Shown: positions 10,298 to 60,562 of the stretch, in pieces
Layout of the letters: the number at the start of each line of letters is the position of its first letter
Numbering within the stretch: position 1 is the first letter of the stretch
From: an uncultured Bacteroidota bacterium
GTDB lineage: Bacteria; Bacteroidota; Bacteroidia; Flavobacteriales; BACL11
NCBI GenBank assembly: GCA_902579065.1
Contig: CACHFI010000002.1
Location: 2,205 to 66,204, forward strand
Direction of reading: 5' to 3'
Length of the DNA stretch: 64,000 bases
Made by a program: the position numbers and the translations under genes
The notes under the pieces: model-generated
Seen by the model: only the letters and a program-made list of their open reading frames with translations
Databases searched by the model: none
What the model was told of the DNA's origin: nothing

Positions 10298-10302
10298 AAA
10301 TT

Positions 10303-11943: not shown

Positions 11944-11945
11944 TC

Positions 11946-14084: not shown

Positions 14085-14093
14085 TTTATAAAG

Positions 14094-16901: not shown

Positions 16902-16922
16902 GATTTAATTTATATAGAAAAT

Positions 16923-29872: not shown

Positions 29873-31261
29873 TTAATTTTTTGCACTTTTTTGCACTTTT
29901 TTGCACTTTTTTGCACTTTTTTGTGTGTTTTTTACAATTTTTAGCATTTTTTTCATCACCTCATCAGTATCCCAAAGTTCATTTATATTTTCAATAGACA
30001 TAATTTGTTCCATTAATTTTTCTTGCTTCATGCCTATTTTCCACGCTTCTGAATAGGGAGTGTTTGTAAAAGAAACCATACTGTACAAAGGGACCCATTT
30101 TTCTGGATGAAGCTTAGAGAATTTTTGCTCAATCTTTTTCTGTAATAAGAATTTTGGATCTGCTGTTTTGTCACGCATAACAATAAAATTGTGCAAAGAC
30201 AAATCCTGCAAACCATCTCCATTTGACTTTCGAGCCTGAGAATATCTAATTAAAATACTTTTCAAATCATCCTCATCATTTATCAATTCATCTAAAATCC
30301 TACAATCCTCAAAACTAGCATTCATTCCTTGACCATAAAATGGCACTGTAGCATGAGCTGAATCTCCAATTAAAACACAATAATCATTAAGATGCCATGG
30401 ATAACACTTAAAAATTCCCATTGAAGAAGTTGGATTCTTAAAAAACTGATCGGAAAGGTCGGGAATCAATTTAGTAAAATCTGGAAAAACTCTACTAAAA
30501 AATTCATTTACCTTTTGAGTCGTATCTAGCTTTTCGAAAGAATCATTTCCTTCAAAAGGAGAAAAAAGTGTACAAGTATAGCTACCATCTAAATTAGGTA
30601 ATGCAATGAGCATAAAATTTCCTCTCGGCCAAATATGCAATGCATTCTTTTCGATTTTATGTGTTCCATCTGGATTTGCAGGAATTAATAATTCTTTATA
30701 ACCATGCTCAATATAAAATTGAGAAAACTGAAAACGATCCTGACGCATCATTTTATCTCTCACAGCTGAATAAGCCCCATCGGCACCAACGATTAAATCA
30801 CATTCAATTGTAATATTTTTTTGTGTTGCATTATTATAAAAAATAAGTTCAGCTTTATCGAAGCTTACATCAATGCACTTATGATTAAAGAAAATTTTAG
30901 CCCCTTCTTTTTCGGCAAGATTCATTAATAAAACATTCAACCCCCCTCTTGGAACAGAAAAAATTGCTTGATCTTCATTACCATAATATTGATCTGTGAG
31001 ACTACCATCATCATCATGCATAATTCTTTTAGGCATTGGTATGGCTATATCTCGAACATATTCATCCACGTTTACTTTTTCTAAAGCTGTCCACCCTCTT
31101 TTTGATAAAGCGAGATTGATTGAGCGTCCCGCAACTAAAGCTGTTTTGCGCATATCTGGCCTGCGCTCATAAATTCTAACTTGATACCCTCTCTTGAGCA
31201 TGTAAAGAGCACATAAAGAACCTGCTAATCCAGCACCAACTATTACTATGTTTTTTTTCAT
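29873..31261 (-). CDS. kmo: Kynurenine 3-monooxygenase
   Basis: FAD motif IVIVGAGLAGS, GDSAHATVPFYGQGMN motif, 462 aa. Abuts kynU with no gap. Confidence 0.9.
   Translation of the reverse strand: MKKNIVIVGAGLAGSLCALYMLKRGYQVRIYERRPDMRKTALVAGRSINLALSKRGWTALEKVNVDEYVRDIAIPMPKRIMHDDDGSLTDQYYGNEDQAIFSVPRGGLNVLLMNLAEKEGAKIFFNHKCIDVSFDKAELIFYNNATQKNITIECDLIVGADGAYSAVRDKMMRQDRFQFSQFYIEHGYKELLIPANPDGTHKIEKNALHIWPRGNFMLIALPNLDGSYTCTLFSPFEGNDSFEKLDTTQKVNEFFSRVFPDFTKLIPDLSDQFFKNPTSSMGIFKCYPWHLNDYCVLIGDSAHATVPFYGQGMNASFEDCRILDELINDEDDLKSILIRYSQARKSNGDGLQDLSLHNFIVMRDKTADPKFLLQKKIEQKFSKLHPEKWVPLYSMVSFTNTPYSEAWKIGMKQEKLMEQIMSIENINELWDTDEVMKKMLKIVKNTQKSAKKCKKVQKSAKN
29877..29926. repeat. 10-bp direct tandem repeat, four perfect copies plus one degenerate copy
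   Basis: TTGCACTTTT at 29881-29890, 29891-29900, 29901-29910 and 29911-29920, followed by TTGTGTGTTT. It encodes the KMO C-terminal tail ...QKSAKKCKKVQKSAKN*. Confidence 0.9.
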
Positions 31262-32512
31262 TTACAAAGTTTCTTCCAGAATTTTACAAAAATTATATAC
31301 ATCTAAGTAACTATTATACAAAGGAACTGGAGCTACACGAATTACATCAGGTTCTCTCCAATCAGCTATTACTCCTTTTTTTGTAATTTCATTAAATAAA
31401 TTTTTATCTCCATTTTTTACACTTAAAGATATCTGACAGCCTCTTTCATTAGGTGTGATTATTTTAATTCGATCATTTGGCAACTGACCAAGTAGAAAAA
31501 CTAAATAAGAGGTTAACTGTTTTGATTTTTCTACTAGTGATGGCATTCCAACTTCATCAAAAATAGATAAAGAAGCTCTAACAGCTGCTAAAGAAAGAAT
31601 AGGAGGATTACTTAATTGCCAGCCTTCAGCTGTTTCAATAGGCATAAATTCATCTGGCATTTTAAAACGACTTTCCTTGTTATGCCCCCACCATCCTGCA
31701 AATCTTTCTAGTTTTCTTTTATGATGTTTTTCGTGTATAAAAACCCCGGCAACTGAGCCCGGACCAGAATTTAAATATTTATATGAACACCAAACAGCAA
31801 AATCAACTCCCCAATCATTTAGCGATAATTCAATATTGCCAGCAGCATGTGCCAAATCAAATCCTACCATAATATTATACTTATGAGCATAATCTGTAAT
31901 TTTCTGCATGTCGAAAACTTGACCTGTATAGTAATTAACTCCTCCTAGCAAAATCAGAGAAATAGAATCAGAATTTTCATTAATAATGTTTAATATATCT
32001 TCTGTCCTCACTACAACCTCTCCTTTTCTTGGAGCAAGCTTTATTAAAGATGAAGATGGATCAAGCCCATGATGTTTAATATGTGACTCAACAGCATAAA
32101 TATCAGAAGGAAATGCATCAGACTCAATTATAATTTTATAACGAACCTTAGTTGGCCTATAGAATGAGACCATCATTAAATGAAGGTTGACAGATAAGGT
32201 GTTCATAGCAACCACTTCATTCTCTTTAGCACCAACTATTTTTGAATAACTTGAAGACAAAAATTCATGATAAGGCAACCAGGGGTTTTTGGCATGTAAA
32301 TGCCCTTCAACTCCAAGGCTTTTCCAATCCTCTAATTCTTGTTGCACGAACTCTTCAGTATTTTTTGATTGTAACCCAAGAGAATTACCGCAAAGATAAA
32401 TATACTTATCTCCGTTATTTTGAAGAGGAAAATAAAACTTGTCCTGATAAGAAGCAAGAGGATCTTTTTTATCAAGTTCTAAAGCAAATTCTATTGAGTT
32501 TTTAAATGTCAT
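31262..32512 (-). CDS. kynU: Kynureninase
   Basis: PLP-lysine region CSYKYLNSGPG, YLCGNSLGLQ, 416 aa. Confidence 0.9.
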   Translation of the reverse strand: MTFKNSIEFALELDKKDPLASYQDKFYFPLQNNGDKYIYLCGNSLGLQSKNTEEFVQQELEDWKSLGVEGHLHAKNPWLPYHEFLSSSYSKIVGAKENEVVAMNTLSVNLHLMMVSFYRPTKVRYKIIIESDAFPSDIYAVESHIKHHGLDPSSSLIKLAPRKGEVVVRTEDILNIINENSDSISLILLGGVNYYTGQVFDMQKITDYAHKYNIMVGFDLAHAAGNIELSLNDWGVDFAVWCSYKYLNSGPGSVAGVFIHEKHHKRKLERFAGWWGHNKESRFKMPDEFMPIETAEGWQLSNPPILSLAAVRASLSIFDEVGMPSLVEKSKQLTSYLVFLLGQLPNDRIKIITPNERGCQISLSVKNGDKNLFNEITKKGVIADWREPDVIRVAPVPLYNSYLDVYNFCKILEETL

Positions 32513-33302
32513 TTAATTTAAAAATTAATGGGCGACTTGGGGCAGCATCAGAAACAAAAGAAGGTATTTGTAAGTTTAACAGATATTTACCATCTTCTAT
32601 TTTTTCATCAACATATATCATTTCTGTAATTGTATAATTTTTAGTATTACTATTGTACTTTTTAGCTTCAGTATCCCAAAAAATATTATGGCTGCTCAAA
32701 ATGCCATCATCAAACAACCTATCCACTGAAGGGGTATCAACCAAAAGATGTTCTACACCTCTTTTTCTTAAATATTTCATTGCTTCTATAGAAAAAAAAG
32801 GCGGTGGTTGCTGCATATAATCTTGCGACATTTTAATTTTTGAGTTTGGATATGTTCTGATTATTAACCCTTCTAAAAAAGCATCAGAGATATTATTTAG
32901 TTTTTCTTCCAACATGTGCCTGGTAATCAAAAGGTCTTCAGAATTTAAATTTGGAAAATACGTTTCTTTACTATTATTTGGAGTAACTGAAATTAGTGTG
33001 CTTTTTATAAAAACTTCTTTTAAAGCAAGATTAATTGAAATCCTTTCTTTTGTAATATGACCTATACACTCTGTATGAGTACCATTACAATGGGGCGTTA
33101 TCTTAAATGTCTCGAAATTGCATGGACCTCCCTCTCTTGTGTCTCCAATAAAATCATCATCCCTATATGGTGATGAAGTAGCTTTTTCAACATTATATGT
33201 GTTTGGCTGCAAACCATTAAAGTTTACAGGTATAGATAAGTCATAATATTCTGAAAAGTCAATTGAGTATGATTTACCTCCTAACTTAAAATTTACATTC
33301 AT
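32502..33302 (-). CDS. Cyclase-family protein, putative divergent kynurenine formamidase
   Basis: HCNGTHTECIGH resembles the cyclase/KynB metal motif HxGTHxDxPxH with D->E and P->G. LLVDTPSVD...SSHNIF resembles the second conserved block. It sits inside the operon with an 11-nt overlap with kynU. Confidence 0.5.
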   Translation of the reverse strand: MNVNFKLGGKSYSIDFSEYYDLSIPVNFNGLQPNTYNVEKATSSPYRDDDFIGDTREGGPCNFETFKITPHCNGTHTECIGHITKERISINLALKEVFIKSTLISVTPNNSKETYFPNLNSEDLLITRHMLEEKLNNISDAFLEGLIIRTYPNSKIKMSQDYMQQPPPFFSIEAMKYLRKRGVEHLLVDTPSVDRLFDDGILSSHNIFWDTEAKKYNSNTKNYTITEMIYVDEKIEDGKYLLNLQIPSFVSDAAPSRPLIFKLNDI

Positions 33303-33305
33303 TTT

Positions 33306-34340
33306 TTATAAATCTTCTTCTCTCTTATTAAGCCAGTTCAATACATTCTTACACCAAATGTCTTTAGCTTCTTGCTTAGTCAAAATTCCATTTTCAACAG
33401 CATAATCTATCACTCTTCCTGGATAAGATGTTCCAACACCTTCCATTTCTCCTAAAGGAAAAGGATCATCTAATCCCATGATTAACTGACTCACTCCAAC
33501 TCTTTTCTTTAATAAATCAAGCGTATGCGAATCATGAACAAGAGTATCAAAATACAAGTTCTTATGGCCTAAAGTTTTTCTCGGATCTTCTAATTCTTCA
33601 AAGATATCTGGACGTCCATCAAAACCCTGAATTCTTCTCCCATAGCTAGCTATACCTAACATTCCTCCGTGTGCAAAACTTGTTCTCAAATTAGGAAATT
33701 TGTTAGGTAAATCTCTTAATGTAAATAAATGAAGGGTATCGGCGCATTGTGCCATCATCCAAATCAAATGAAATCTCCAATATTTATTTTTTAATGCTAT
33801 CATTTTTTCACCATCATAAGGGTGAATTTGAATTGCTAAACCATGGTGATTTGCAAGTTCATAAATCGGATCAACATCAGATTCTGCTGTTGACATCCAT
33901 TCGCCTTTAGAATTTAAAAAATGTGAAGGCAAACATAAAACACGTAGATTCAATTTCACACATCTTTCAATTTCCTTTAGTGCGTGTTCAATATACATTG
34001 GCTGAACAACAAACCCACATGTAAACTTTTTGGGATAATCATTTTGTACTGAAGCATTAAAATCATTTTGAAATTGAATCCCATCAAAGCAATCTTGCTT
34101 TTTCCAACCATTACAATATAATTGTGAAAGACATAGCATTACACCATGGTCGATGTTATGCTGATCCATCCACTCTATTTTTTCTTTTACAAAAAAACTT
34201 GCTCCATTAATTGGCCTAGACCAATCTGCTTGTCTCATAAACTTCTTATCATCATCTATCCAAAACAACTTTTTCTCTCTCATAAAAGCAGGTATTTGAG
34301 AAGGCTCAGGAAGTATATGACCGTGTCCGTTTATTCGCAT
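33306..34340 (-). CDS. 2-amino-3-carboxymuconate-6-semialdehyde decarboxylase (amidohydrolase-2 family)
   Basis: N-terminal metal ligands MRINGHGHILP. Size (344 aa) and the FAHGG / YFDT..H / GLDDPFP blocks are typical of ACMSD-type amidohydrolases. Confidence 0.75.
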   Translation of the reverse strand: MRINGHGHILPEPSQIPAFMREKKLFWIDDDKKFMRQADWSRPINGASFFVKEKIEWMDQHNIDHGVMLCLSQLYCNGWKKQDCFDGIQFQNDFNASVQNDYPKKFTCGFVVQPMYIEHALKEIERCVKLNLRVLCLPSHFLNSKGEWMSTAESDVDPIYELANHHGLAIQIHPYDGEKMIALKNKYWRFHLIWMMAQCADTLHLFTLRDLPNKFPNLRTSFAHGGMLGIASYGRRIQGFDGRPDIFEELEDPRKTLGHKNLYFDTLVHDSHTLDLLKKRVGVSQLIMGLDDPFPLGEMEGVGTSYPGRVIDYAVENGILTKQEAKDIWCKNVLNWLNKREEDL

Positions 34341-34349
34341 ATCTTATTA

Positions 34350-34886
34350 TTAATCACTAACGTATCTACTATCAGCCTCCATTACCTCACCTGTTTTTGG
34401 ACATGTTCTGAGCTTTTCATCAGAATAAAAACGTTTAAATACAGGTAAGAAATCTTTTTCAATATTAGTTAAGTGAAAATATTCCTCATAAAGTAATTCA
34501 TTAGCTGTATCTGAAAACCACATTAGACCATCTTTATCATTATTTGTTCTTTTTCTTTCAATAACTAAACCAATAGACCCTTCTGAACGAACAGGAGAAT
34601 GAGGTATTTTAGGTGGTAACAAAAACATTTCCCCCTCATTAATTGGAACCTCAACTAATTTACCATCTTGTTGTGTCTTTACAACAATACTTCCTTCTAT
34701 TTGGTAAAATAACTCTTCAGTTTCATTGTAATGATAGTCTTTTCGCGCATTTGGCCCTGCTACTATCATCACTATGTAATCTTCTGACTCAACATATAAG
34801 TTTTTATTTCCAACTGGAGGTTTAAGCAAATGTCTGTTTTCATCAATCCACTTTTGTAAGTTAAATGGTTTTTTAATTTTTGTCAT
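34350..34886 (-). CDS. 3-hydroxyanthranilate 3,4-dioxygenase (cupin)
   Basis: LQKWIDENRHLLKPPVGNK, KDYHYNETEELFYQIEG and PPKIPHSPVR match the HAAO cupin iron-ligand pattern. 178 aa. Confidence 0.9.
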   Translation of the reverse strand: MTKIKKPFNLQKWIDENRHLLKPPVGNKNLYVESEDYIVMIVAGPNARKDYHYNETEELFYQIEGSIVVKTQQDGKLVEVPINEGEMFLLPPKIPHSPVRSEGSIGLVIERKRTNNDKDGLMWFSDTANELLYEEYFHLTNIEKDFLPVFKRFYSDEKLRTCPKTGEVMEADSRYVSD

Positions 34887-34896
34887 AATTATATAT

Positions 34897-35331
34897 TTAA
34901 ATTGTTGCTATAACTTTTAATTCAATTGCAATTGGGGTTGGTAATGATTTAATTTCAATGGTAGTTCTACAAGGTTGATTTTCCTTAAAATATTCAGCAT
35001 ATATTTTATTATATATTTTAAAATCATCTTTCATATTAGTTAAAAAAACCTGAACATCTACAATATTGTCCCATGAAGAACCAGCATCTTCAAGAATATA
35101 TCTAACATTTTGAAATACTGAATGACACTGCTTAGCAATATCATAACTTTCGATTTCCCCCTCATCATTAAGTTTTACTCCTGGAATATTTTTTTGATTT
35201 GCAGCTCGTGGCCCTACCCCAGAAAGAAACAAAAATTCACCAACCTTTCTTGCGTGAGGATATAATCCTACTGCTTGTGGAGCTCTTTCACTATTAAATT
35301 TTTCTCCATTCATATCTATATTTTTAGACAC
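34897..35331 (-). CDS. RidA/YjgF-family protein, probable 2-aminomuconate deaminase
   Basis: APQAVGLYPHARKVGEFLFLSGVGP and the C-terminal CRTTIEIKSLP are RidA hallmarks. The operon context matches AmnD/NbaF-type deaminases. Confidence 0.7.
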   Translation of the reverse strand: MSKNIDMNGEKFNSERAPQAVGLYPHARKVGEFLFLSGVGPRAANQKNIPGVKLNDEGEIESYDIAKQCHSVFQNVRYILEDAGSSWDNIVDVQVFLTNMKDDFKIYNKIYAEYFKENQPCRTTIEIKSLPTPIAIELKVIATI

Positions 35332-36755
35332 ACGTTTTTTGGTTCAGTAAAAAATTGTAAAGATTTAAACCCGCCTTCTCTTCCAACTCCTGACTGTTTC
35401 ATCCCTCCAAATGGAATTCTTAAATCTCTTAACATCCAAGTATTAATCCATACAATTCCAGATTTTATTTTTGCAGCAACTCTATGTGCTCTACTAACAT
35501 TCTCAGTAAAAATACTAGCTGAGAGCCCATAATCTGTAGAATTAGCCATCAATATTACCTCGTCTTCATCTTTAAATGGTATTAATGTTAATACAGGTCC
35601 AAATATTTCTTCTTGATTAATACTGCAATCAAAAGGCAAACCATCAATAATAGTTGGTTCAATATAATACCCATTAGCATATTCGCCCTCAATAATTTTT
35701 CTTTTTCCTCCAAGTAATATTTTCCCTCCTAATTTTTTTGCTTCTTCAATTTTTGATAAAACTTTGTTCATATGGTCTATTGAAACTACAGCACCTAAAT
35801 CATTGGATTCTTTTGGGTTTCCTACTTTTAAAAGCGATGCTTTTGCAATAACTGCATTTTTAAATTTTTCGTATATGGTTTCCTCTACAAATAATCTGGA
35901 ACCACATAAGCATATTTGTCCTTGATTAGAAAAACCTGCTTTTACAGCCAGTGCAACAGCTTTTTCAAAATTAGCATCAGCAAATACAATATTTGGATTT
36001 TTCCCGCCTAACTCAAGAGATAATTTCTTAAACATGGGGGCAGCTAATTTAGCAATATGCTTACCAGTAACTGTTCCTCCAGTGAATGAGACAATAGGTG
36101 TATCAACATGAGTTGTGAGTGCATCACCCATTTTTGAACCAACTCCGTGAACGATATTTAATACTCCTTCTGGAAAATTAATTTCTTTACAAATCTTACT
36201 AAGCAAAAATGCGGTCATTGGGGTAATTTCAGAGGGCTTTGCAACAACTGTATTGCCAGCAGCCAAGGCTGGAGCAATTTTCCATGTCAAAAGATATAAT
36301 GGCAAATTCCATGGAGATATACAGGCGGCTACACCAACAGGCTCTCTTAAAGTATAATTTAATGCCTTGCCATCCATTTCATGTATCTCAGAAGAAAAAT
36401 GTAGTATAGCTGTAGCAAAAAATCTGAAATTTTCGGAAGCCCTTGGAATATCTACTATTCTAGCAAGAGTTTCTGGCTTTCCATTATCTTTACTTTCTGT
36501 AAGTATTAATTCTTCAGAATACTCATCAATCTTGTCTGCTAGATCCATTAACAAATCAGATCGTTGTTTTTTTGTTGTTTGACTCCAGCTTTCAAAAGCT
36601 TGTTTAGCAGATTTAACAGCAATATTAATATCTTCATAATTACTATCTGGAATTAATGAATATGGCTGTCCAGTAGCTGGGTTAAAATTTTCAAAGAAAT
36701 TTCCAGAGACTGGCTCAACTAATTCTCCATTAATATAATTATAAATTTTCTCCAT
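35316..36755 (-). CDS. Aldehyde dehydrogenase, probable 2-aminomuconate-6-semialdehyde dehydrogenase
   Basis: ALDH motifs LELGGKNP (catalytic Glu) and FSNQGQICLCGSR (catalytic Cys), plus EEIFGPV. 479 aa. Confidence 0.8.
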   Translation of the reverse strand: MEKIYNYINGELVEPVSGNFFENFNPATGQPYSLIPDSNYEDINIAVKSAKQAFESWSQTTKKQRSDLLMDLADKIDEYSEELILTESKDNGKPETLARIVDIPRASENFRFFATAILHFSSEIHEMDGKALNYTLREPVGVAACISPWNLPLYLLTWKIAPALAAGNTVVAKPSEITPMTAFLLSKICKEINFPEGVLNIVHGVGSKMGDALTTHVDTPIVSFTGGTVTGKHIAKLAAPMFKKLSLELGGKNPNIVFADANFEKAVALAVKAGFSNQGQICLCGSRLFVEETIYEKFKNAVIAKASLLKVGNPKESNDLGAVVSIDHMNKVLSKIEEAKKLGGKILLGGKRKIIEGEYANGYYIEPTIIDGLPFDCSINQEEIFGPVLTLIPFKDEDEVILMANSTDYGLSASIFTENVSRAHRVAAKIKSGIVWINTWMLRDLRIPFGGMKQSGVGREGGFKSLQFFTEPKNVCLKI

Positions 36756-36758
36756 ACA

Positions 36759-37538
36759 CTATAAACTTGATGTTCTTCCTCCATCTACAGGTAAATTAAT
36801 CCCATTTATATAACTTGCAGCAGGCGAGCTCAAAAATATAGTAGCATTTGCAACTTCACTTGCTTCACCAAATCTATTTAATGGTACTGATTTTTTCATT
36901 TCATTCTCGACTTCAATTTTTGACTTACCTAAAATGCTGGATTTTTTTTCAATCAAGGATTTCAATCTATTTGTATTTGTAAAGCCTGGCAGAACATTAT
37001 TTACAGTGATCCCGTATGAGCCCAATTCTAGTGATAATGTTTTTGCCCAATTTGCAACAGCCGCTCTAATTGTATTAGAAACTCCTAAACCAGGAATTGG
37101 AGCTTTTACAGAAGTAGAAATTATATTTATTATTCTCCCAAATGATTTTTTTTTCATTCCGCCTACAACCTTTTGAATCAGAATTTGATTATTTAATAGA
37201 TGCATTTTAAAAGCTAATAAAAAATCCTCAGCACTTGCATCGGCTATCGGACCAGAAGCTGGACCACCAGTATTATTTATTAAAATATCGTAGTTTGTTT
37301 TTTCTAAAATTTCAATTTTTTTAGCAAATTGATTATCTGCAAAATCTACACATAGGTAATTGTGATTTTGAGCTAAAGAAGTGTCAAGTGTATCAACGAC
37401 TTCTTTTAAAACACTTTCATTTCTAGCTATTAATGTTAAGCTTACCCCTTGCTTAGCCAAGCCAACTGCAATTGCCTTACCAATTCCTTGGGTACTACCA
37501 CACACAATAGCTTTTTTATTTCTTAATCCTAAATTCAT
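36759..37538 (-). CDS. SDR-fold protein with non-canonical active site, function unknown
   Basis: The cofactor motif GSTQGIG and NNTG are present. Where classical SDRs have YxxxK, 13 residues after the Ser, this protein reads S-N-T-I-R (ISTSVKAPIPGLGVSNTIRAAVANWAK). 4-nt overlap with TDO. Confidence 0.8.
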   Translation of the reverse strand: MNLGLRNKKAIVCGSTQGIGKAIAVGLAKQGVSLTLIARNESVLKEVVDTLDTSLAQNHNYLCVDFADNQFAKKIEILEKTNYDILINNTGGPASGPIADASAEDFLLAFKMHLLNNQILIQKVVGGMKKKSFGRIINIISTSVKAPIPGLGVSNTIRAAVANWAKTLSLELGSYGITVNNVLPGFTNTNRLKSLIEKKSSILGKSKIEVENEMKKSVPLNRFGEASEVANATIFLSSPAASYINGINLPVDGGRTSSL

Positions 37539-38632
37539 ATTTTTTTATTACTAAAATTAAAACTCAGTTTTTCCTCAATATTAGTTGGAAGCTTTGGCAG
37601 ATACTCTCTAGAAATCATAAGTGTTGCAATATTCGCAATATCCTCAAATAATCTATGTTTATCAACTGTTTGTTTTAAATACCCCTGACCACTTGATCCG
37701 CCAGTGCCAATTTTTTGACCTAACATCTTCTCAACCATCTGAACATGTCTAAATCTCCAAAGAGATATTTTATGGTCTATTTCAACCAGTTGGCGTAAAA
37801 ATTTATATGGCAATTGAAGTATCGGTTGCTCTCCATATAGATTAATTAATAATGCAGACATCGTGGCTTTATATGACAATTTTGTCATTCCGTTCTCATG
37901 AGATTGACGGTGATTTTTCTCATCAAAAATATTTTGAAAATATTTTTGATTTTCTTTAATCATCTTTATTCTAATAGCCTTATCATTGTCACTTATTGAT
38001 GAGGAATTGATGATCGACATTTCCCTGTCTAACATTTTTGCAACAGCAGATTTATATTGTTCAATAAAATCAAACCCCTCCATTTGTAAAAAAGGAATCC
38101 TTTCTAACCATTTTTCCACTAATGTAAATAATGAATTATCACTTTCTAAATCAAGAATCTCCTCTTTTTTTTCACCACTAAATTGATCGTGATATGGACA
38201 TCCTCCAAAGTGATGTCTTTTGTTAATTTTTAAACCAAGTATAACTTCTATTTTTCTAAACTGATGAGATTGAAAGCCAGAAGCTGGAGACAAATAATTT
38301 CTGAAATCTAAAAAATCAAGGGCTGTCATAGTTTCAAGAATGTCAAGTTGTTGTACTAAAACATCTAAAATTTTACTAACTCTATCAAAACGCCCTACTA
38401 CTATACCCACGTTTTCTTCATCCATTTTTTCTTTACTCAACAAATGAATCACTGAATTTATTTCATGAATAATCTGTTTAAACCACAACTCATATGTCTG
38501 ATGAATTATGATAAATAACATTTCTTCATGAGCTTCATTATTATTCCCTTTACTTAAAGGATGTTGAGCGTCAAGAATTTTATCTAGATCCAAATACTCA
38601 TTATAGTGAACAGATGAGGGTTTTTTAGACAT
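37535..38632 (-). CDS. kynA: Tryptophan 2,3-dioxygenase
   Basis: YNEYLDLDKIL..QHP, EMLFIIIHQTYELWFKQ and GTGGSSG motifs. 365 aa. Confidence 0.9.
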   Translation of the reverse strand: MSKKPSSVHYNEYLDLDKILDAQHPLSKGNNNEAHEEMLFIIIHQTYELWFKQIIHEINSVIHLLSKEKMDEENVGIVVGRFDRVSKILDVLVQQLDILETMTALDFLDFRNYLSPASGFQSHQFRKIEVILGLKINKRHHFGGCPYHDQFSGEKKEEILDLESDNSLFTLVEKWLERIPFLQMEGFDFIEQYKSAVAKMLDREMSIINSSSISDNDKAIRIKMIKENQKYFQNIFDEKNHRQSHENGMTKLSYKATMSALLINLYGEQPILQLPYKFLRQLVEIDHKISLWRFRHVQMVEKMLGQKIGTGGSSGQGYLKQTVDKHRLFEDIANIATLMISREYLPKLPTNIEEKLSFNFSNKKI

Positions 38633-38670: not shown

Positions 38671-39477
38671 TTACAAAAAGATTGATGTGAGAATTAAAAA
38701 AAACAAAAGAGAAATCGAACACGATTCAAGCCAAAAAGAATAATACAAACCGTCTTTTTTTTGATTATCCTTACATACAATATAAAACGAATATAAAAAA
38801 CAGAGAATGGTTGAAATAAAAAACCCAAAATTTAAATTATTTAAATACAAATACGAATCAATAATTAAAAAAAGTAATAAAAAAAAGACAGCTATTTTTT
38901 TAGCCATTTTATCTCCTACTAACATTGGAATCGTGTAAGTTTTTTTCTTATCGTATTCAACATCCCTGATGTCAAATGGAATAGTTATTGCAATAATGAA
39001 AAACATTCGGGATATTATTGATAAAACGACATTTGAATTTAGAACTAAATTGCTTTCATAGTAAATTAGTGCAACAGTAGAAAAAGACCACGAAAAAGCT
39101 ATTAGAAAAATTTTTAAATAAGGTGTTTTTCTTAAAATAGGATAGCTCAATGAAATAGTAGAAATCATTAAAACCATTAATTGAGTAATGCCACTTAACT
39201 TTAGAAATAAATTAGAAAAAATAATCACTGATATAAGCAGCAGAAATTGAAAAACATACTTGTTCTTTAAAATCCAGAAAGATTTTAAATCCTTTTTTAC
39301 TGTGTAACAAAAAATAAATCTTTGGAAATTATAAGACAAAAAAGTGCCAAAAAACAATAATAGAAGTATTTTAAAATCATACAGGCCTAATGTATATTGT
39401 GATACTAAAGCAAGAGAAAAAACAGATAGTGAAATAAAAAGTTTACTGCTTAAAACAAAATTAATTAAATGATTCAA
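38671..39477 (-). CDS. Polytopic membrane protein, UbiA-prenyltransferase-like (second Asp-rich motif only)
   Basis: About 8 hydrophobic helices. PFDIRDVEYDKKKTYTIPMLVG fits DxxDxxxD plus the following G...T.P...G block. No NxxxDxxxD is visible after TM2. Confidence 0.35.
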   Translation of the reverse strand: MNHLINFVLSSKLFISLSVFSLALVSQYTLGLYDFKILLLLFFGTFLSYNFQRFIFCYTVKKDLKSFWILKNKYVFQFLLLISVIIFSNLFLKLSGITQLMVLMISTISLSYPILRKTPYLKIFLIAFSWSFSTVALIYYESNLVLNSNVVLSIISRMFFIIAITIPFDIRDVEYDKKKTYTIPMLVGDKMAKKIAVFFLLLFLIIDSYLYLNNLNFGFFISTILCFLYSFYIVCKDNQKKDGLYYSFWLESCSISLLFFLILTSIFL

Positions 39478-39486: not shown

Positions 39487-42252
39487 CTATATTACAATAT
39501 TGATTATTTTTTTTGGTACTATTATAATTCTTTTTGGCTTTGAAGAATCTAAATAATGTAATGTTTTTTCATGCTTCATAATGTAATCTTCTATTTCATC
39601 TTTACCCATTTCAACCGGTAAACTAACTTTAAATCTCATTTTACCATTAAACGAAACTGGATAATTAATTTCATTTTCAACTAAATATTTTGATTCATAT
39701 TTTGGAAATGGAACTTTTGATATTGAAGATGTATTACCCAATTTTTCCCAAATTTCTTCTGCAAAATGTGGTGCATATGGAGATAAAAGAATAATAAAAT
39801 CTGAAAAGACACTTATATTTTTACATTTTTGATCAATTAATTCATTTAAACAAATCATTAATGTACTTACAACTGTATTAAATGAAAAACGCTCAATATC
39901 TTCGTCAACTTTCTTTATAGTTTTATGAAGAGTTTTTAATGAAGCATCAGTTGGAGGATTGGACGTTAAACAAAAAACATTTTCGCTGTCATGAAGATGC
40001 CTCCATAGTTTTCTTAAAAAATTATGCACCCCACTAATACCATTAACATCCCATGGCTTAAATTGTTCTAATGGCCCAAGAAACATTTCATAAAGTCTCA
40101 AAGTATCTGCGCCATATTTTTCTACTAAATCGTCTGGAGTTTGAGTATTATATTTAGATTTTGACATTTTTTCAACTTCATGACTACACTTATAACGCCC
40201 ATCATCTTCTAAAATAAATTCTGCATCTGAAAACTCACTCCTCCAGTTTTTAAATTTATCAATATCTAAATAATCATTTTCAACCAGATTAATATCAACA
40301 TGAATCTTTGATGTATCATACTTGTCTTTTAATGAGTTTGTAACAAATATATTAGAATCTTTAATCCTATAAACAAAATTTGATCTGCCAAGAATCATAC
40401 CTTGATTAATCAGTTTTTTAAATGGTTCATCAAAAGATATGAAGCCTCTGTCAAATAAAAATTTTGTCCAAAATCGAGAATATAATAAATGACCTACAGC
40501 GTGTTCTGCTCCACCAATATATAGGTCTACCTGGCCCCAGTAATCAGATTTTTTTTTAGAAACAAACTCTTGATTATTTTCTGCATCCATAAATCTTAAA
40601 AAATACCAGGAAGAACCTGCCCATCCAGGCATTATATTAGTATCCATTCTATCTCCTTCAAAAATATTCCAATCTGATTGTTTTGCTCTTGCTAGTGGAG
40701 GGTCTCCCGTTTCTGTAGGTAAGTACTTATCAATCTCAGGCAAAGTAACAGGTTCATTTTGTGAAATAATGTAGGGTAGATCATTTTTATAATAAACAGG
40801 GAATGGTTCTCCCCAATATCTTTGCCTAGAAAAAACTGCATCTCTAAGTCTATAATTAACTTTTGATGTGCCAATACCTTGATCTTCAATTTTTGAAATT
40901 GATTTTTCAATTGCCTCTTTACAATTTAAATTATTTAAAAAATCAGAATTAATTATTATCGCATCTTTTCCCTCAAATGCAGATTGAGATATATCAGTTT
41001 CCTTAAAAATATTAATAATGTTGATATTGTAATGTTTAGCAAATAACCAATCTCTCTGATCACCGCAAGGAACTGCCATTACAGCTCCTGTACCGTATGA
41101 TGCAAGAACATAATCCGCAACCCAAATTTCGATTTTATTTTTTGAAAATGGATGAATAGCATAACTTCCTGTAAAAACGCCACTAACTTTTTTGTCTGAT
41201 TGTCGTTCTCTTTCTGATTTTAACTTAGAAATTGACAAATAATTATCAACTTCATTTTGCATTTGACTTGTTGTAAGAGAAGACACTAATTCATGCTCTG
41301 GAGATAAAACTAAAAAACTGACTCCAAACAAAGTATCTGGTCTTGTTGTAAAAACCTCGATAACTTCACCACATTCTGTAGAAAAACTCATGGTAACTCC
41401 CTTGGATTTACCAATCCAATTTCTTTGCATTTCTTTTAATGAGTCTGACCAATCAATATTATTTAAGCCTTCATTTAATCTATCCGCATAAGCCGTGATT
41501 CTTAACGACCACTGTTTCATTTTCTTTTGCTCAACCAAAAAACCTCCGCGTTCTGATCGCCCTTCTTTGACTTCATCATTTGCCAATACTGTTCCTAACT
41601 CTGGACACCAATTAACCATACTTTCAGAAAGATATGCAAGTCTATATGACAACAGAACTTCTTGCTTTCTATTTTCTGAAAAACTTAACCATTCTTGAGA
41701 ACTAAATGAAGGGGTTTTTTCATCACATGGCGAGTTTACTTCTAAGTTTCCATTTCTTTCAAATTCTGATATTAGTTCTGAAATAGGAAATGCTTTATTG
41801 TCAATGTTACAATAATATGAATCAAATAATTGTTTAAAAATCCACTGAGTCCATTTATAATAATCAGGATCAGAAGTTTTAAATTCTCTACTCCAATCAA
41901 ATGAAAATCCTAATTTGTCTAATTGTTCTCGGTAACGACTAGAATTTTTTTCAGTAGCAATTTTAGGGTGAATACCTGTTTCTATTGCATATTGCTCAGT
42001 TGGAAGACCAAAAGAGTCATATCCCATTGGGTGTAATACATTGTAGCCTTTATGCTTTTTAAAACGAGAATATATATCAGATGCAATATAACCGAGAGGA
42101 TGACCAACATGCAATCCAGATCCAGATGGATATGGGAACATATCTAAAACATAAAATTTTTGTTTAGTGTCATCCTCAAAAACTTTATAGGTTTCGTTAG
42201 CACTCCAATAAGAGCGCCATTTTTTTTCAATATTTTTAAAATTGTACTGCAT
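39487..42252 (-). CDS. leuS: Leucyl-tRNA synthetase
   Basis: HVGHPLGY (HIGH), KMSKS, 921 aa. Confidence 0.97.
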   Translation of the reverse strand: MQYNFKNIEKKWRSYWSANETYKVFEDDTKQKFYVLDMFPYPSGSGLHVGHPLGYIASDIYSRFKKHKGYNVLHPMGYDSFGLPTEQYAIETGIHPKIATEKNSSRYREQLDKLGFSFDWSREFKTSDPDYYKWTQWIFKQLFDSYYCNIDNKAFPISELISEFERNGNLEVNSPCDEKTPSFSSQEWLSFSENRKQEVLLSYRLAYLSESMVNWCPELGTVLANDEVKEGRSERGGFLVEQKKMKQWSLRITAYADRLNEGLNNIDWSDSLKEMQRNWIGKSKGVTMSFSTECGEVIEVFTTRPDTLFGVSFLVLSPEHELVSSLTTSQMQNEVDNYLSISKLKSERERQSDKKVSGVFTGSYAIHPFSKNKIEIWVADYVLASYGTGAVMAVPCGDQRDWLFAKHYNINIINIFKETDISQSAFEGKDAIIINSDFLNNLNCKEAIEKSISKIEDQGIGTSKVNYRLRDAVFSRQRYWGEPFPVYYKNDLPYIISQNEPVTLPEIDKYLPTETGDPPLARAKQSDWNIFEGDRMDTNIMPGWAGSSWYFLRFMDAENNQEFVSKKKSDYWGQVDLYIGGAEHAVGHLLYSRFWTKFLFDRGFISFDEPFKKLINQGMILGRSNFVYRIKDSNIFVTNSLKDKYDTSKIHVDINLVENDYLDIDKFKNWRSEFSDAEFILEDDGRYKCSHEVEKMSKSKYNTQTPDDLVEKYGADTLRLYEMFLGPLEQFKPWDVNGISGVHNFLRKLWRHLHDSENVFCLTSNPPTDASLKTLHKTIKKVDEDIERFSFNTVVSTLMICLNELIDQKCKNISVFSDFIILLSPYAPHFAEEIWEKLGNTSSISKVPFPKYESKYLVENEINYPVSFNGKMRFKVSLPVEMGKDEIEDYIMKHEKTLHYLDSSKPKRIIIVPKKIINIVI

Positions 42253-59383: not shown

Positions 59384-60562
59384 ATGAAACAAGATCTTTT
59401 TCAAGCTCCAGATTATTTTAATATGGATGAGCTACTTACGGATGAACACAAATTAATTAGAGAGGCAGCTAGAGAATGGGTAAAAAAAGAAATCTCTCCT
59501 ATAATTGAAGATGCATGTCAAAAGGCCGAATTCCCGAGTCAAATTTTGCCTGGACTTGCAGAAATAGGTGCTTTTGGACCATATATTCCTGTTGAATATG
59601 GTGGAGCTGGATTAGATAACATATCATACGGTATCATTATGCAGGAACTTGAGCGAGGAGACAGTGGTATTAGGTCTACAGCATCAGTACAATCTTCTCT
59701 TGTAATGTATCCAATATTCAAGTATGGAAATGAAGATCAGCGCAAAAAATATCTACCCAAATTAGCTACTGGCGAACTTATGGGGTGTTTTGGATTAACT
59801 GAGCCTGATCACGGTTCAAATCCTGGTGGAATGACTACGAACATAAAAGATATGGGGGATCATTTTATTCTTAATGGTGCTAAAATGTGGATTTCTAACT
59901 CTCCCTTTGCAGATATTGCTGTAGTTTGGGCAAAAAACGAAGAAGGACGTATAAAAGGAGTGATTGTTGAAAGAGGGATGGAGGGGTTTACAACACCTGA
60001 AACTCATAACAAATGGAGTTTAAGGGCTTCAGCAACTGGAGAACTAGTTTTTGATAATGTAAAAATTCCAAAAGAAAATATTTTGCCAAATAAAGATGGG
60101 CTTGGAGCCCCACTTGGGTGTTTGGACTCGGCAAGGTATGGAATTGCTTGGGGAGCAATTGGTGCGGCAATGGACTGCTACGATACAGCTCTAAGATATT
60201 CAAAAGAAAGGATTCAATTTGGTAAGCCAATTGCCGCTTTTCAACTTCAACAAAAGAAACTTGCAGAAATGATAACTGAAATAACAAAAGCTCAGTTTAT
60301 TACCCTAAGATTAGGGCAACTTAAAAATGAAGATAAAGCAACCTCCGCTCAAATATCTATGTGTAAAAGAAATAATGTAGAAATGGCTTTGAACATCACA
60401 AGAGAAGCAAGGCAAATCCTTGGGGGGATGGGAATAACTGGGGAATATTCTATTATGAGACATATGATGAACTTAGAATCTGTGATCACATATGAAGGAA
60501 CCCATGACATACATCTTCTCATTACAGGATTAGATATTACAGGCGAAAATGCATTTAAATAA
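59384..60562 (+). CDS. gcdH: Glutaryl-CoA dehydrogenase (acyl-CoA dehydrogenase family)
   Basis: DSGIRSTASVQSSLVMYPI, GCFGLTEPDHGSNPGGM, ARYGIAWGAIGAA and C-terminal TYEGTHDIHLLITG..ITG follow the GCDH pattern. Confidence 0.8.
   Translation: MKQDLFQAPDYFNMDELLTDEHKLIREAAREWVKKEISPIIEDACQKAEFPSQILPGLAEIGAFGPYIPVEYGGAGLDNISYGIIMQELERGDSGIRSTASVQSSLVMYPIFKYGNEDQRKKYLPKLATGELMGCFGLTEPDHGSNPGGMTTNIKDMGDHFILNGAKMWISNSPFADIAVVWAKNEEGRIKGVIVERGMEGFTTPETHNKWSLRASATGELVFDNVKIPKENILPNKDGLGAPLGCLDSARYGIAWGAIGAAMDCYDTALRYSKERIQFGKPIAAFQLQQKKLAEMITEITKAQFITLRLGQLKNEDKATSAQISMCKRNNVEMALNITREARQILGGMGITGEYSIMRHMMNLESVITYEGTHDIHLLITGLDITGENAFK

What the first reader, a model, noticed from the sequence alone, without database searches (positions are those of the whole stretch)
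29873..38632. Nine-gene kynurenine operon encoding an animal-type tryptophan-to-2-aminomuconate (probably 2-oxoadipate) route
Nine co-directional genes are packed with overlaps or gaps of 10 nt or less. The order is TDO (4-nt overlap) SDR (3-nt gap) ALDH (16-nt overlap) RidA (10) HAAO (9) ACMSD (3) cyclase-like (11-nt overlap) kynureninase (0) KMO. Motifs support every assignment. The set contains the NAD-directed trunk (TDO, formamidase, KMO, KYNU, HAAO). It also contains the catabolic branch (ACMSD, aminomuconate-semialdehyde dehydrogenase, RidA-type deaminase). Known bacterial versions of the catabolic branch (nitrobenzoate and aminophenol degraders, Burkholderia/Cupriavidus) continue with 4-oxalocrotonate decarboxylase, hydratase and aldolase genes. 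None of those is present here. Instead there is an SDR-fold gene in the operon and a glutaryl-CoA dehydrogenase at 59384. That resembles the mammalian glutarate pathway, in which one step still has no assigned gene.
Basis: partly seen in the sequence, partly recalled or inferred. Interest (0 to 1): 0.7.

Follow-up and report, generated by a model that had tools for sequence, protein, structure and literature searches.

The report
Tryptophan-breakdown operon with unassigned reductase
An abundant small-genome marine flavobacterium carries a compact nine-gene cluster for breaking down tryptophan; eight genes are routine, but the ninth, an unusual reductase kept beside these genes across Bacteroidota, is a good candidate for a step (to 2-oxoadipate) that has no assigned gene.

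Summary
Nine co-directional minus-strand genes (29873-38632) have exactly the reported order and spacing. Homology supports all nine assignments: TDO, KMO, kynureninase, HAAO, ACMSD (all catalytic residues kept), 2-aminomuconate-semialdehyde dehydrogenase, a RidA-type 2-aminomuconate deaminase, a divergent cyclase-family putative formamidase, and an SDR. JGI/IMG automatic annotation already names seven of these; the trunk in Flavobacteriales is published.

The SDR is the new element. It is atypical: Ser/Arg replace the catalytic Tyr/Lys. Its only characterised relatives are AerF and BacG, NADPH-dependent C=C reductases of conjugated 2-oxo acids. Orthologs (50-60% identity) sit beside HAAO, ACMSD or the aldehyde dehydrogenase in about seven different gene arrangements across Flavobacteriales and Cytophagales. 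The called-gene Pfam tables of the cultured-species loci and the ORFs of the window show no decarboxylase, hydratase or aldolase genes.

The best reading is that the SDR reduces 2-oxohex-3-enedioate to 2-oxoadipate, feeding glutaryl-CoA. This is inferred, not shown.

"Animal-type" is only partly right. The deaminase, formamidase and single-domain HAAO are bacterial types. A 2026 preprint assigns the animal step to ASPDH, which makes a different product. Tight spacing is the norm in this genome, and the rest of the genome could not be searched.

The parts
37535..38632 (-). Tryptophan 2,3-dioxygenase (365 aa), long eukaryote-like form
   Evidence: PF03301 at 5.8e-98, covering nearly the full profile. 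PDB sequence matches to human and insect TDO reach about 1e-86 over the full length. Bacterial TDOs reach about 1e-34 over the N-terminal 130 residues only.
36759..37538 (-). Atypical SDR (259 aa) of the AerF/BacG-like subfamily. Proposed NADPH-dependent 2-oxohex-3-enedioate (4-oxalocrotonate) reductase that forms 2-oxoadipate.
   Evidence: Pfam adh_short_C2 and adh_short. PDB sequence matches: Burkholderia SDRs 5vps/5idx/5va8, AerF 6jh7 at 7e-40, BacG 3u49 at 4e-32. The AF2 model has pLDDT 90.6. Its best structural matches are those same NADP(H)-bound proteins at TM about 0.9. S154 and R158 replace the canonical Tyr and Lys; H113 is invariant in 44 orthologs. Linkage to HAAO, ACMSD or AMSDH is conserved in about seven arrangements. 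The function is inferred.
35316..36755 (-). 2-Aminomuconate-6-semialdehyde dehydrogenase (479 aa)
   Evidence: PF00171 at 4.5e-165. The best NCBIfam hit is TIGR03216, hydroxymuconic semialdehyde DH, at 543 bits, below its 693-bit cutoff. The seven best PDB sequence matches are all 2-aminomuconate semialdehyde dehydrogenases, 1e-123 to 1e-127. JGI names a cluster mate accordingly.
34897..35313 (-). RidA-family 2-aminomuconate deaminase (138 aa from ATG 35313; an alternative GTG at 35331 gives 144 aa)
   Evidence: PF01042 at 2.8e-27. The best PDB sequence match is 6izh, '2-aminomuconate deaminase', at 3.4e-22. JGI names the identical protein '2-aminomuconate deaminase'.
34350..34886 (-). 3-Hydroxyanthranilate 3,4-dioxygenase (178 aa, single cupin domain)
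   Evidence: NF009763 at 256 bits (cutoff 220) and TIGR03037 at 220 bits (cutoff 146), both above cutoff. H52, E58, H96, R48 and R100 are invariant in alignment A1.
33306..34340 (-). ACMS decarboxylase (344 aa), a divergent lineage
   Evidence: All 13 PDB sequence matches are ACMSD, with human at 3e-29 and P. fluorescens at 2e-10. The residue-by-residue alignment shows these positions conserved: H6/H8, R42, H173, W189, H224, R235 and D291. They correspond to Pf H9/H11, R51, H177, W191, H228, R239 and D294. No NCBIfam model matches.
32502..33302 (-). Cyclase-family protein (266 aa), putative kynurenine formamidase
   Evidence: PF04199 at 5.6e-15, above its gathering score. TIGR03035 arylformamidase reaches only 25 bits against a 223-bit cutoff. 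There is no PDB sequence match. The motif HCNGTHTECIGH at residue 71 resembles the KynB metal motif. An ortholog lies between HAAO and KYNU in L048. JGI names a cluster mate 'arylformamidase'.
31262..32512 (-). Kynureninase (416 aa)
   Evidence: TIGR01814 at 451 bits, above its 246-bit cutoff. PF22580 KYNU_C is also matched.
29873..31261 (-). Kynurenine 3-monooxygenase (462 aa; cluster mates are 450 aa)
   Evidence: The ten best PDB sequence matches are all KMO, from 9e-101 down to 6e-66. The next family, TetX, scores 1e-15.
59384..60562 (+). Glutaryl-CoA dehydrogenase (392 aa). A possible downstream enzyme, unlinked and not part of the cluster.
   Evidence: PDB sequence matches to GCDH reach 5e-128 to 2e-111, against 1e-73 for the next family. 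Its neighbours are unrelated.

Best explanation
The cluster encodes the oxidative (kynurenine) route of tryptophan breakdown.

The steps supported by homology run as follows:
1. TDO opens the indole ring.
2. The cyclase-family protein removes formate.
3. KMO hydroxylates kynurenine.
4. Kynureninase releases alanine and 3-hydroxyanthranilate.
5. HAAO opens the ring to ACMS. ACMS can cyclise on its own to quinolinate for NAD synthesis.
6. ACMSD removes CO2.
7. The aldehyde dehydrogenase makes 2-aminomuconate.
8. The RidA-type deaminase releases ammonia and gives 2-oxohex-3-enedioate (4-oxalocrotonate).

The next step is inferred. The atypical AerF/BacG-like SDR would use NADPH to reduce the C3=C4 double bond conjugated to the 2-oxo acid and so form 2-oxoadipate. 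A 2-oxoacid dehydrogenase complex, not encoded in the window, would convert this to glutaryl-CoA. The unlinked GCDH would then take it towards acetyl-CoA.

On this reading the usual bacterial decarboxylase / hydratase / aldolase lower pathway is replaced by a single reductive step into the lysine/glutarate route.
For: Family assignments:
- Each trunk and branch enzyme is supported (details under 'parts').

SDR chemistry:
- The only characterised proteins among its closest sequence and structure matches are AerF and BacG/YwfH.
- BacG carries out conjugate C=C reduction of a 2-oxo acid (my own knowledge of Rajavel 2013).
- The canonical Tyr and Lys are replaced by S154 and R158. This argues against ordinary ketone reduction.
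- The top structural matches are NADP(H) complexes, and R39 follows strand 2. Both point to NADPH.

SDR linkage:
- Orthologs at 50-60% identity sit beside HAAO, ACMSD or AMSDH in several distinct layouts.
- The window clade has the nine-gene operon.
- Cyclobacteriaceae, Fulvivirga, Ekhidna and Roseivirgaceae have [ALDH<-SDR]<->[HAAO->KYNU->KMO].
- Pontibacter has [KYNU<-ACMSD<-HAAO]<->[SDR->ALDH].
- Aquimarina and Pseudofulvibacter have KYNU-KMO-RidA-IclR-ALDH-SDR-HAAO-ACMSD.
- Kordia has RidA-ALDH-SDR-x-ACMSD.
- Vicingaceae and Salibacteraceae have SDR<->HAAO-ACMSD.

Lower pathway:
- No FAA-hydrolase, HMGL-aldolase or acetaldehyde-dehydrogenase domain appears in the Pfam tables of those contexts or among the window ORFs scanned.
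- No paper in the library names a gene for this reduction.
- The 2026 preprint leaves the fate of the deaminase product open.
Against: - No biochemical data exist for any member of this SDR ortholog group.
- The K-x-x-x-Y pair on helix 4 is visible in AerF ('GKLIGY'). It is reported as catalytic in BacG (Lys113/Tyr117) from my own knowledge; the BacG sequence was not aligned here. It is not conserved in this SDR, which has H113 and N117 at those positions. The mechanism cannot simply be copied from AerF/BacG.
- Homologs at 41% identity or less on plasmids sit in unrelated contexts. The subfamily is therefore functionally diverse.
- In three Cyclobacteriaceae loci the SDR neighbours only HAAO-KYNU-KMO, with no branch gene within 10 kb.
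- In L091 HAAO is found only by tblastn, about 2.5 kb from the SDR, with no other pathway gene nearby.
- The rest of the genome, a contig of about 1.7 Mb, could not be searched for a meta-cleavage lower pathway, for nadC, or for a 2-oxoadipate dehydrogenase.
- GCDH is unlinked and is common in bacteria that degrade lysine.
Confidence: 0.5

Rival explanations
1. The pathway continues after the deaminase through the standard meta-cleavage lower pathway (4-oxalocrotonate decarboxylase, hydratase, aldolase) encoded elsewhere in the genome. The SDR has some other accessory role.
For: This is the only experimentally established bacterial continuation (Burkholderia cenocepacia cluster, as summarised). 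The rest of the genome was not searchable. SDR homologs occur in many unrelated contexts.
Against: No such gene lies among the window ORFs scanned or within 10 kb of the SDR in the annotated cultured-species loci. In known degraders those genes are clustered with HAAO/ACMSD. This rival gives no reason for the SDR to keep its place beside HAAO, ACMSD and AMSDH through many rearrangements. The host genome is small (contigs of about 1.7 Mb).
Confidence: 0.2
2. The SDR acts on a different labile intermediate of the same pathway. One option is direct reduction of 2-aminomuconate or its imine tautomer, a functional analogue of metazoan ASPDH. Another is action on the semialdehyde. The RidA protein would then only mop up imines.
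For: Metazoa do reduce 2-aminomuconate directly with NAD(P)H. In Cytophagales clusters the SDR pairs with AMSDH, and no RidA gene is adjacent. In three loci the SDR neighbours only HAAO-KYNU-KMO.
Against: A RidA protein whose best solved relative is a validated 2-aminomuconate deaminase is encoded in the window operon and in the Flavobacteriaceae clusters. The characterised relatives AerF and BacG act on conjugated 2-oxo acids, not on enamines.
Confidence: 0.15
3. The cluster is essentially the known Flavobacteriales de novo NAD pathway. ACMSD and the downstream genes serve only as an overflow or detoxification valve, and the SDR is a passenger gene.
For: The kynurenine route to quinolinate is published for Flavobacteriales (PMC4217691, citing Lima 2009). 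Many of the 80 HAAO loci, for example in the genus Flavobacterium, have HAAO with no SDR ortholog at 50% identity or more within 10 kb.
Against: Four of the nine genes (ACMSD, AMSDH, deaminase, SDR) lead away from quinolinate. That is a large investment for a genome of about 1.7 Mb. The SDR is invariant at 80 or more positions across 44 orthologs and moves together with the branch genes. A passenger gene would not behave this way.
Confidence: 0.1

Closest known systems
Bacterial 3-hydroxyanthranilate / 2-nitrobenzoate / 2-aminophenol catabolic clusters (Burkholderia cenocepacia J2315 kynurenine cluster; nba and amn clusters of Pseudomonas)
   Same: HAAO, ACMSD, 2-aminomuconate semialdehyde dehydrogenase and a RidA-family 2-aminomuconate deaminase work in series. 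The window's ALDH and RidA proteins have these enzymes as their best solved relatives.
   Different: Those clusters continue with 4-oxalocrotonate decarboxylase, hydratase, aldolase and acetaldehyde dehydrogenase, and they have no SDR. Here none of those genes was found in the window ORFs scanned or in the annotated related loci, and an AerF/BacG-like SDR is a fixed member. The TDO, KMO and ACMSD here are also closer to the metazoan forms.
Metazoan kynurenine-to-glutarate pathway (TDO2, AFMID, KMO, KYNU, HAAO, ACMSD, ALDH8A1, ASPDH/AMR)
   Same: The intermediates are the same as far as 2-aminomuconate. TDO, KMO and ACMSD match human, rat or insect enzymes best. The presumed end point, 2-oxoadipate then glutaryl-CoA with a human-like GCDH, is also shared.
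   Different: The formamidase is cyclase-family, not AFMID. HAAO is single-domain (one search shows that the eukaryotic forms are two-domain). The step after 2-aminomuconate uses a RidA deaminase plus an SDR here. The animal enzyme is ASPDH, which makes 2-aminohex-3-enedioate without releasing ammonia.
Fungal 3-hydroxyanthranilate catabolic cluster (Aspergillus; PMC7842363 and the 2026 preprint)
   Same: HAAO, ACMSD, AMSDH and a RidA-type deaminase are clustered. The fate of 2-oxohex-3-enedioate is unassigned, and reduction to 2-oxoadipate has been explicitly suggested. An SDR gene is reported as syntenic in some Aspergillus clusters.
   Different: Whether the fungal syntenic SDR is homologous to this one was not testable. 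The fungal clusters lack the TDO/KMO/KYNU trunk genes in the same locus.
AerF (aeruginosin Choi biosynthesis) and BacG/YwfH (bacilysin biosynthesis) SDR ene-reductases
   Same: They belong to the same SDR subfamily by sequence (7e-40 and 4e-32) and by structure (TM about 0.9), and they bind NADPH. AerF also lacks the canonical Tyr-x3-Lys. The proposed substrate is likewise a C=C bond conjugated to a 2-oxo acid.
   Different: Identity is only 33-36%. The helix-4 Lys-x3-Tyr pair of AerF/BacG is His113...Asn117 here. The genomic context is catabolic, not a peptide-antibiotic cluster. The proposed substrate is a linear dicarboxylate.
Kynurenine route to quinolinate/NAD in Flavobacteriales and Xanthomonadales (Lima 2009; my own knowledge of Kurnasov 2003)
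   Same: TDO, KMO, KYNU and HAAO are present in Bacteroidota with an affinity to the eukaryotic enzymes (PMC4217691).
   Different: Those descriptions concern the five-step NAD trunk. Here the trunk is fused in one unit with a four-gene branch that leads away from quinolinate.

Membership tests
Kynurenine pathway trunk (Trp to ACMS/quinolinate) | Tryptophan 2,3-dioxygenase present | tested here: met
   PF03301 at 5.8e-98. PDB TDO matches reach about 1e-86.
Kynurenine pathway trunk (Trp to ACMS/quinolinate) | Kynurenine formamidase present | tested here: inconclusive
   The cyclase family PF04199 is above its gathering score. TIGR03035 reaches 25 bits against a 223-bit cutoff, and no solved KynB matches. 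The assignment rests on context and on a KO-based name.
Kynurenine pathway trunk (Trp to ACMS/quinolinate) | KMO, kynureninase and HAAO present | tested here: met
   KMO matches PDB entries at 9e-101. TIGR01814 and NF009763/TIGR03037 are above their cutoffs.
Kynurenine pathway trunk (Trp to ACMS/quinolinate) | Quinolinate phosphoribosyltransferase (nadC) in the genome, so that the trunk can feed NAD | not testable with these tools
   No nadC was found among the window ORFs of 100 aa or more that were scanned.
ACMS catabolic branch (ACMSD, AMSDH, 2-aminomuconate deaminase) | ACMSD with its metal ligands, catalytic His and substrate Arg residues | tested here: met
   H6/H8, R42, H173, H224, R235 and D291 align to Pf H9/H11, R51, H177, H228, R239 and D294. 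Every PDB sequence match is an ACMSD.
ACMS catabolic branch (ACMSD, AMSDH, 2-aminomuconate deaminase) | Aldehyde dehydrogenase of the 2-amino/2-hydroxymuconate semialdehyde type | tested here: met
   The seven best PDB sequence matches are AMSDH. The best NCBIfam model is TIGR03216, though at 543 bits it is below the 693-bit equivalog cutoff. The E-L-G-G and catalytic Cys motifs and R-x-PFGG are present.
ACMS catabolic branch (ACMSD, AMSDH, 2-aminomuconate deaminase) | RidA/YjgF-type 2-aminomuconate deaminase | tested here: inconclusive
   The best solved relative is 6izh, 2-aminomuconate deaminase, at 3.4e-22. Generic RidA proteins follow closely, with the next at 9e-21. Specificity is inferred from context.
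Meta-cleavage lower pathway (4-oxalocrotonate decarboxylase, 2-oxopent-4-enoate hydratase, HOA aldolase, acetaldehyde DH) | Those genes clustered with the upper pathway | tested here: not met
   No FAA_hydrolase, HMGL-like or DmpG domain appears among the window ORFs of 100 aa or more that were scanned. None appears within 10 kb in the contexts with annotated genes.
Meta-cleavage lower pathway (4-oxalocrotonate decarboxylase, 2-oxopent-4-enoate hydratase, HOA aldolase, acetaldehyde DH) | Those genes anywhere in the genome | not testable with these tools
   Only the 64 kb window and 10 kb flanks of related loci can be read.
AerF/BacG-type SDR ene-reductases | Same SDR subfamily by sequence and fold, binding NADPH | tested here: met
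   AerF at 7e-40 and BacG at 4e-32. TM 0.87-0.92 to the NADPH complexes. R39 follows strand 2.
AerF/BacG-type SDR ene-reductases | Canonical Tyr-x3-Lys absent | tested here: met
   S154 and R158 align to FabG Y151 and K155.
AerF/BacG-type SDR ene-reductases | Helix-4 Lys-x3-Tyr catalytic pair (BacG K113/Y117; AerF 'GKLIGY') | tested here: not met
   The window has H113 and N117 at those columns, and H113 is invariant in 44 orthologs. This protein is therefore not filed as an AerF/BacG ortholog, only as a relative with probably similar chemistry.
AerF/BacG-type SDR ene-reductases | C=C reduction activity on a conjugated 2-oxo acid | not testable with these tools
   This needs an enzyme assay.
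Metazoan ASPDH-type 2-aminomuconate reductase | An aspartate-dehydrogenase-fold protein associated with the pathway genes | tested here: not met
   No ORF in the cluster or window matches that fold. The only reductase in the cluster is an SDR.

The most novel reading that the evidence does not exclude
The conserved Bacteroidota SDR is the long-unassigned 'oxalocrotonate reductase' (2-oxohex-3-enedioate to 2-oxoadipate). It would define a third, reductive lower branch of the 3-hydroxyanthranilate pathway in bacteria. It would also give a sequence handle for finding the equivalent step downstream of the fungal deaminase. The proposed catalytic solution is an SDR ene-reductase that lacks both the canonical Tyr/Lys and the AerF/BacG Lys/Tyr pair and uses an invariant His instead.
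Probability: 0.45. Interest if true: 0.7.

Novelty: new variant of a known kind. Interest (0 to 1): 0.55.

Why it matters
How carbon from 2-aminomuconate reaches 2-oxoadipate has been an open point in tryptophan catabolism for decades. A 2026 preprint assigns the animal step to ASPDH, which makes an unexpected amino-acid product. That preprint shows that fungi use a RidA-type deaminase and leaves the next step without a gene.

This cluster, and its relatives in cultured Aquimarina, Kordia, Pontibacter and Pseudofulvibacter, offers a specific and testable candidate for that next step. Strains and simple spectrophotometric assays are already at hand.

The cluster also shows that a very abundant, genome-streamlined marine flavobacterium devotes nine genes to complete tryptophan oxidation. 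That bears on the turnover of aromatic amino acids in the sea and on predictions of NAD auxotrophy.

If the SDR works as proposed, it would be a one-enzyme route from aromatic ring-cleavage products to 2-oxoadipate. This is of some interest for bio-based production of adipate and glutarate.

Tried and rejected
- A single-sequence AlphaFold model of the SDR was useless (pLDDT 36). It was replaced by a model built on a 44-sequence alignment.
- tblastn of the SDR against plasmids gave only homologs at 41% identity or less. Three contexts were inspected (Priestia, Gemmatirosa, Ideonella) and none had kynurenine genes. They say nothing about this ortholog group, beyond showing that the subfamily is diverse.
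- The sigma-70 promoter and terminator scan gave counts no higher than shuffled sequence. The Bacteroidetes -7 motif TAnnTTTG is absent just upstream of TDO but is present upstream of LeuRS. Transcript boundaries therefore remain unknown.
- GCDH orthologs lie near HAAO in L012 and L025, which looked like a lead. They sit among unrelated housekeeping genes, so this was treated as coincidence.
- I checked whether the 921-aa and 935-aa ORFs could be 2-oxoacid dehydrogenase E1 subunits. They are LeuRS and a TonB-dependent receptor.
- Literature searches found no gene assignment for '2-aminomuconate reductase', 'oxalocrotonate reductase' and variants, or for SDRs in 3-hydroxyanthranilate clusters. 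They returned only the 2026 ASPDH preprint and a textbook-style enzyme name.
- The strict 'animal-type pathway' reading was rejected, because the formamidase, HAAO architecture and deaminase are bacterial or fungal types.

Full report
**Observation**

One search shows nine consecutive ORFs on the minus strand between 29873 and 38632.
- TDO to SDR: 4-nt overlap
- SDR to ALDH: 3-nt gap
- ALDH to RidA: 16-nt overlap
- RidA to HAAO: 10-nt gap
- HAAO to ACMSD: 9-nt gap
- ACMSD to cyclase-like: 3-nt gap
- cyclase-like to kynureninase: 11-nt overlap
- kynureninase to KMO: 0 nt

Two qualifications apply.
- The RidA gene more probably starts at the ATG at 35313. That gives 138 aa and a 2-nt gap, which is the length called in related contigs and held in the protein collection.
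- Such packing is normal in this window. Coding density is about 96.5%, and 59% of the other co-directional pairs also have gaps of 10 nt or less.

The co-directional run extends from LeuRS (39487-42252) and a UbiA-like gene (38671-39477) upstream. Downstream it continues through DUF4197, a C26 peptidase, iPGM and an M20 peptidase. Consensus scans gave no usable promoter or terminator. The unit is therefore defined by functional coherence and by synteny in other genomes, not by spacing.

**What the genes are**

Pfam, NCBIfam and PDB sequence searches support each assignment.
- Kynureninase and HAAO score above NCBI's equivalog cutoffs.
- The ten best solved relatives of KMO are all KMO (9e-101 to 6e-66).
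- TDO matches human and insect TDO over its full length (about 1e-86). It matches bacterial TDO only over the N-terminal third (about 1e-34).
- The 344-aa amidohydrolase matches no NCBIfam model, but every PDB sequence hit is ACMSD. The printed alignments show all metal ligands, the catalytic His and both substrate-binding Arg residues conserved.
- The seven best solved relatives of the ALDH are 2-aminomuconate semialdehyde dehydrogenases.
- The best solved relative of the RidA protein is a 2-aminomuconate deaminase, 6izh.
- The cyclase-family protein is the weakest call. PF04199 is above its gathering score, but the arylformamidase equivalog is far below cutoff and no solved KynB matches. It carries a KynB-like His/Glu motif. 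An ortholog lies between HAAO and kynureninase in another Bacteroidia genome.

The exact window proteins are in the public collection, on an NCBI contig of 66,485 bp. JGI's automatic annotation already names seven of the nine correctly (no member of the TDO cluster read carried a name) and calls the SDR a generic 3-oxoacyl-ACP reductase. Near-identical operons sit on contigs of about 1.7 Mb from marine metagenomes. The host is therefore an abundant, streamlined, uncultured marine member of the Flavobacteriales. GC content is about 30%.

**Surroundings**

Pfam scans covered the window ORFs of 100 aa or more, apart from two short ORFs (118 and 111 aa) and a few that overlap longer genes. The Pfam table of the near-identical locus L001 covers a further block. 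Together these showed none of the following:
- FAA-hydrolase-type decarboxylase or hydratase
- HMGL/DmpG aldolase
- acetaldehyde dehydrogenase
- nadC
- 2-oxoacid dehydrogenase

The acyl-CoA dehydrogenase at 59384-60562 is a decarboxylating glutaryl-CoA dehydrogenase of the human type. It is unlinked and lies among unrelated genes. It is compatible with a glutarate route but is not evidence for one.

**The SDR**

This is the only gene without an obvious role.
- By sequence its closest solved relatives are three Burkholderia structural-genomics SDRs, AerF (6jh7), TM1169, APE0912 and BacG/YwfH.
- A model built on 44 orthologs has pLDDT 90.6. It superposes best on the same proteins, all NADP(H) complexes, at TM 0.87-0.92.
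- BacG performs the corresponding conjugate reduction of dihydro-hydroxyphenylpyruvate (my own knowledge of the bacilysin literature).
- The only characterised relatives therefore reduce a C=C bond conjugated to a 2-oxo acid.
- In a MAFFT alignment the canonical catalytic Tyr and Lys are Ser154 and Arg158 here.
- The helix-4 Lys-x3-Tyr pair, seen in AerF and reported as catalytic for BacG (my own knowledge), is His113...Asn117 here. H113 is invariant across 44 orthologs.
- The protein is thus a relative of AerF/BacG, not an ortholog. The chemistry is a reasoned inference.

**Comparative genomics**

A scan of one genome per species with an HAAO profile returned 80 Bacteroidota loci. tblastn with the window proteins and ORF clustering gave these results.
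- The full nine-gene layout is confined to the window's close relatives.
- SDR orthologs at 50-59% identity lie immediately beside HAAO in many Cytophagales and other Flavobacteriales. Unrelated SDRs score about 30%, so the two groups are clearly separated.
- The usual Cytophagales layout is [ALDH<-SDR]<->[HAAO->KYNU->KMO].

A profile search with those orthologs found only Bacteroidota proteins. Contexts in cultured species add further layouts:
- Pontibacter: [KYNU<-ACMSD<-HAAO]<->[SDR->ALDH]
- Aquimarina and Pseudofulvibacter: KYNU-KMO-RidA-IclR-ALDH-SDR-HAAO-ACMSD
- Kordia: RidA-ALDH-SDR-x-ACMSD
- Strain SCSIO 12741: an HAAO match by tblastn about 2.5 kb from the SDR

This amounts to roughly seven independent arrangements that keep the SDR with HAAO and the branch genes. 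None of the called-gene Pfam tables for these contexts lists a meta-cleavage lower-pathway domain. Chance adjacency of one particular gene to another in genomes of 2-6 Mb is of the order of 1 in 1000 per genome, so this linkage is far beyond chance.

**Mechanism proposed**

The deaminase product, 2-oxohex-3-enedioate, is an alpha,beta-unsaturated 2-oxo dicarboxylate. That is the functional group which the AerF/BacG relatives reduce. NADPH-dependent reduction of C3=C4 gives 2-oxoadipate. A 2-oxoacid dehydrogenase complex would convert this to glutaryl-CoA, and GCDH would act next. Invariant basic residues (K145, R158, R191) could bind the two carboxylates; this is speculative.
- Supported by homology: all steps up to the deaminase.
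- Inferred: the SDR step and everything after it.

**Comparison with what is known**

- The trunk in Flavobacteriales, and its affinity to eukaryotic enzymes, is published (PMC4217691).
- The ACMSD / AMSDH / deaminase branch is known from Burkholderia and from nitrobenzoate and aminophenol degraders. There it continues with the decarboxylase / hydratase / aldolase set.
- In animals a June 2026 preprint identifies ASPDH as a 2-aminomuconate reductase that gives 2-aminohex-3-enedioate without ammonia release. It shows that fungi use a RidA-type deaminase and leaves later steps open.
- A study of Aspergillus clusters suggested reduction of 2-oxo-3-hexenedioate to 2-oxoadipate as one possibility. 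It noted a syntenic SDR but made no assignment.
- I found no paper that assigns a gene to this reduction.
- The cluster is therefore a known pathway with a new, conserved and unassigned component: a new variant of a known kind.

**Limits**

- No biochemistry exists for this SDR group.
- The remainder of the genome could not be searched. A remote meta-cleavage set, nadC, or a dedicated 2-oxoadipate dehydrogenase cannot be confirmed or excluded.
- Three Cyclobacteriaceae loci show the SDR with only HAAO-KYNU-KMO nearby.
- Distant subfamily members occur in unrelated contexts.

**Verdict**

- The ordinary part (eight genes) is already known in kind.
- The SDR is a worthwhile, directly testable lead.

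Noticed in passing
window 34350-34886 (HAAO), residues 125, 128, 162, 165: Most single-domain HAAO homologs in alignment A1 carry four Cys residues (C125, C128, C162, C165), the rubredoxin-like site of bacterial enzymes. The window protein has S125, A128, C162 and T165, so that second metal site appears to be lost, as in animal enzymes.
   Followed up: partly
window 33306-34340; L028:10590-11627, L076, L041, L060, L068: Bacteroidota carry two very different ACMSD lineages next to HAAO. One is a human-like canonical form, which is 26-28% identical to the window protein. The other is the divergent form found in the window, which is 55-85% identical in Kordia, Aquimarina, Vicingaceae and the window clade. 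The divergent form matches no NCBIfam model, and NCBI names it only 'amidohydrolase'.
   Followed up: partly
window 29873-29906 (3' end of KMO / start of DUF4197): The window KMO is 462 aa, whereas nearly all members of its 90% cluster are 450 aa. The extra lysine-rich tail (…KSAKKCKKVQKSAKN) overlaps the GTG start of the DUF4197 gene by 34 nt. This may be a mutated stop codon or a sequencing difference.
   Followed up: no
window 3514-17844: A block looks like an N-glycan or glycoprotein utilisation locus: CutC, glycosylasparaginase (Asparaginase_2), GH20 hexosaminidase, GH92 mannosidase, an MFS transporter, a PLD-like/DUF5689 protein, a TonB-dependent receptor with a CarboxypepD_reg domain, and a lamin-tail-domain protein.
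   Followed up: no
L090:7755-8522 and 12661-13302; L092:7787-8548 and 12517-13158: In Aquimarina spongiae and Pseudofulvibacter geojedonensis the cluster contains an IclR-type regulator between the RidA and ALDH genes. A class-I O-methyltransferase (Methyltransf_3) directly follows ACMSD. The window operon has neither of these and no regulator of its own.
   Followed up: no
window 38671-39477: A 268-aa UbiA-family membrane protein lies 38 nt upstream of TDO on the same strand, and this placement is kept in the close relatives L001 and L004. It scores barely above the Pfam threshold and has no NCBIfam match. Whether it belongs to the transcription unit is unknown.
   Followed up: no
L001 (ERZ28548087 contig, 1.68 Mb): In this otherwise near-identical contig the genes for LeuRS, TruB and QueA are each split into two called ORFs. 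This suggests residual frameshift errors in that assembly rather than real pseudogenes (compared).
   Followed up: no
L085:6111-9099 (Priestia aryabhattai plasmid p-LAD2): The closest plasmid-borne homolog of the SDR (41% identity) is flanked by a fumarylacetoacetate-hydrolase-family gene and a dicarboxylate symporter. This hints that other members of the subfamily also act on dicarboxylic oxo-acids.
   Followed up: no
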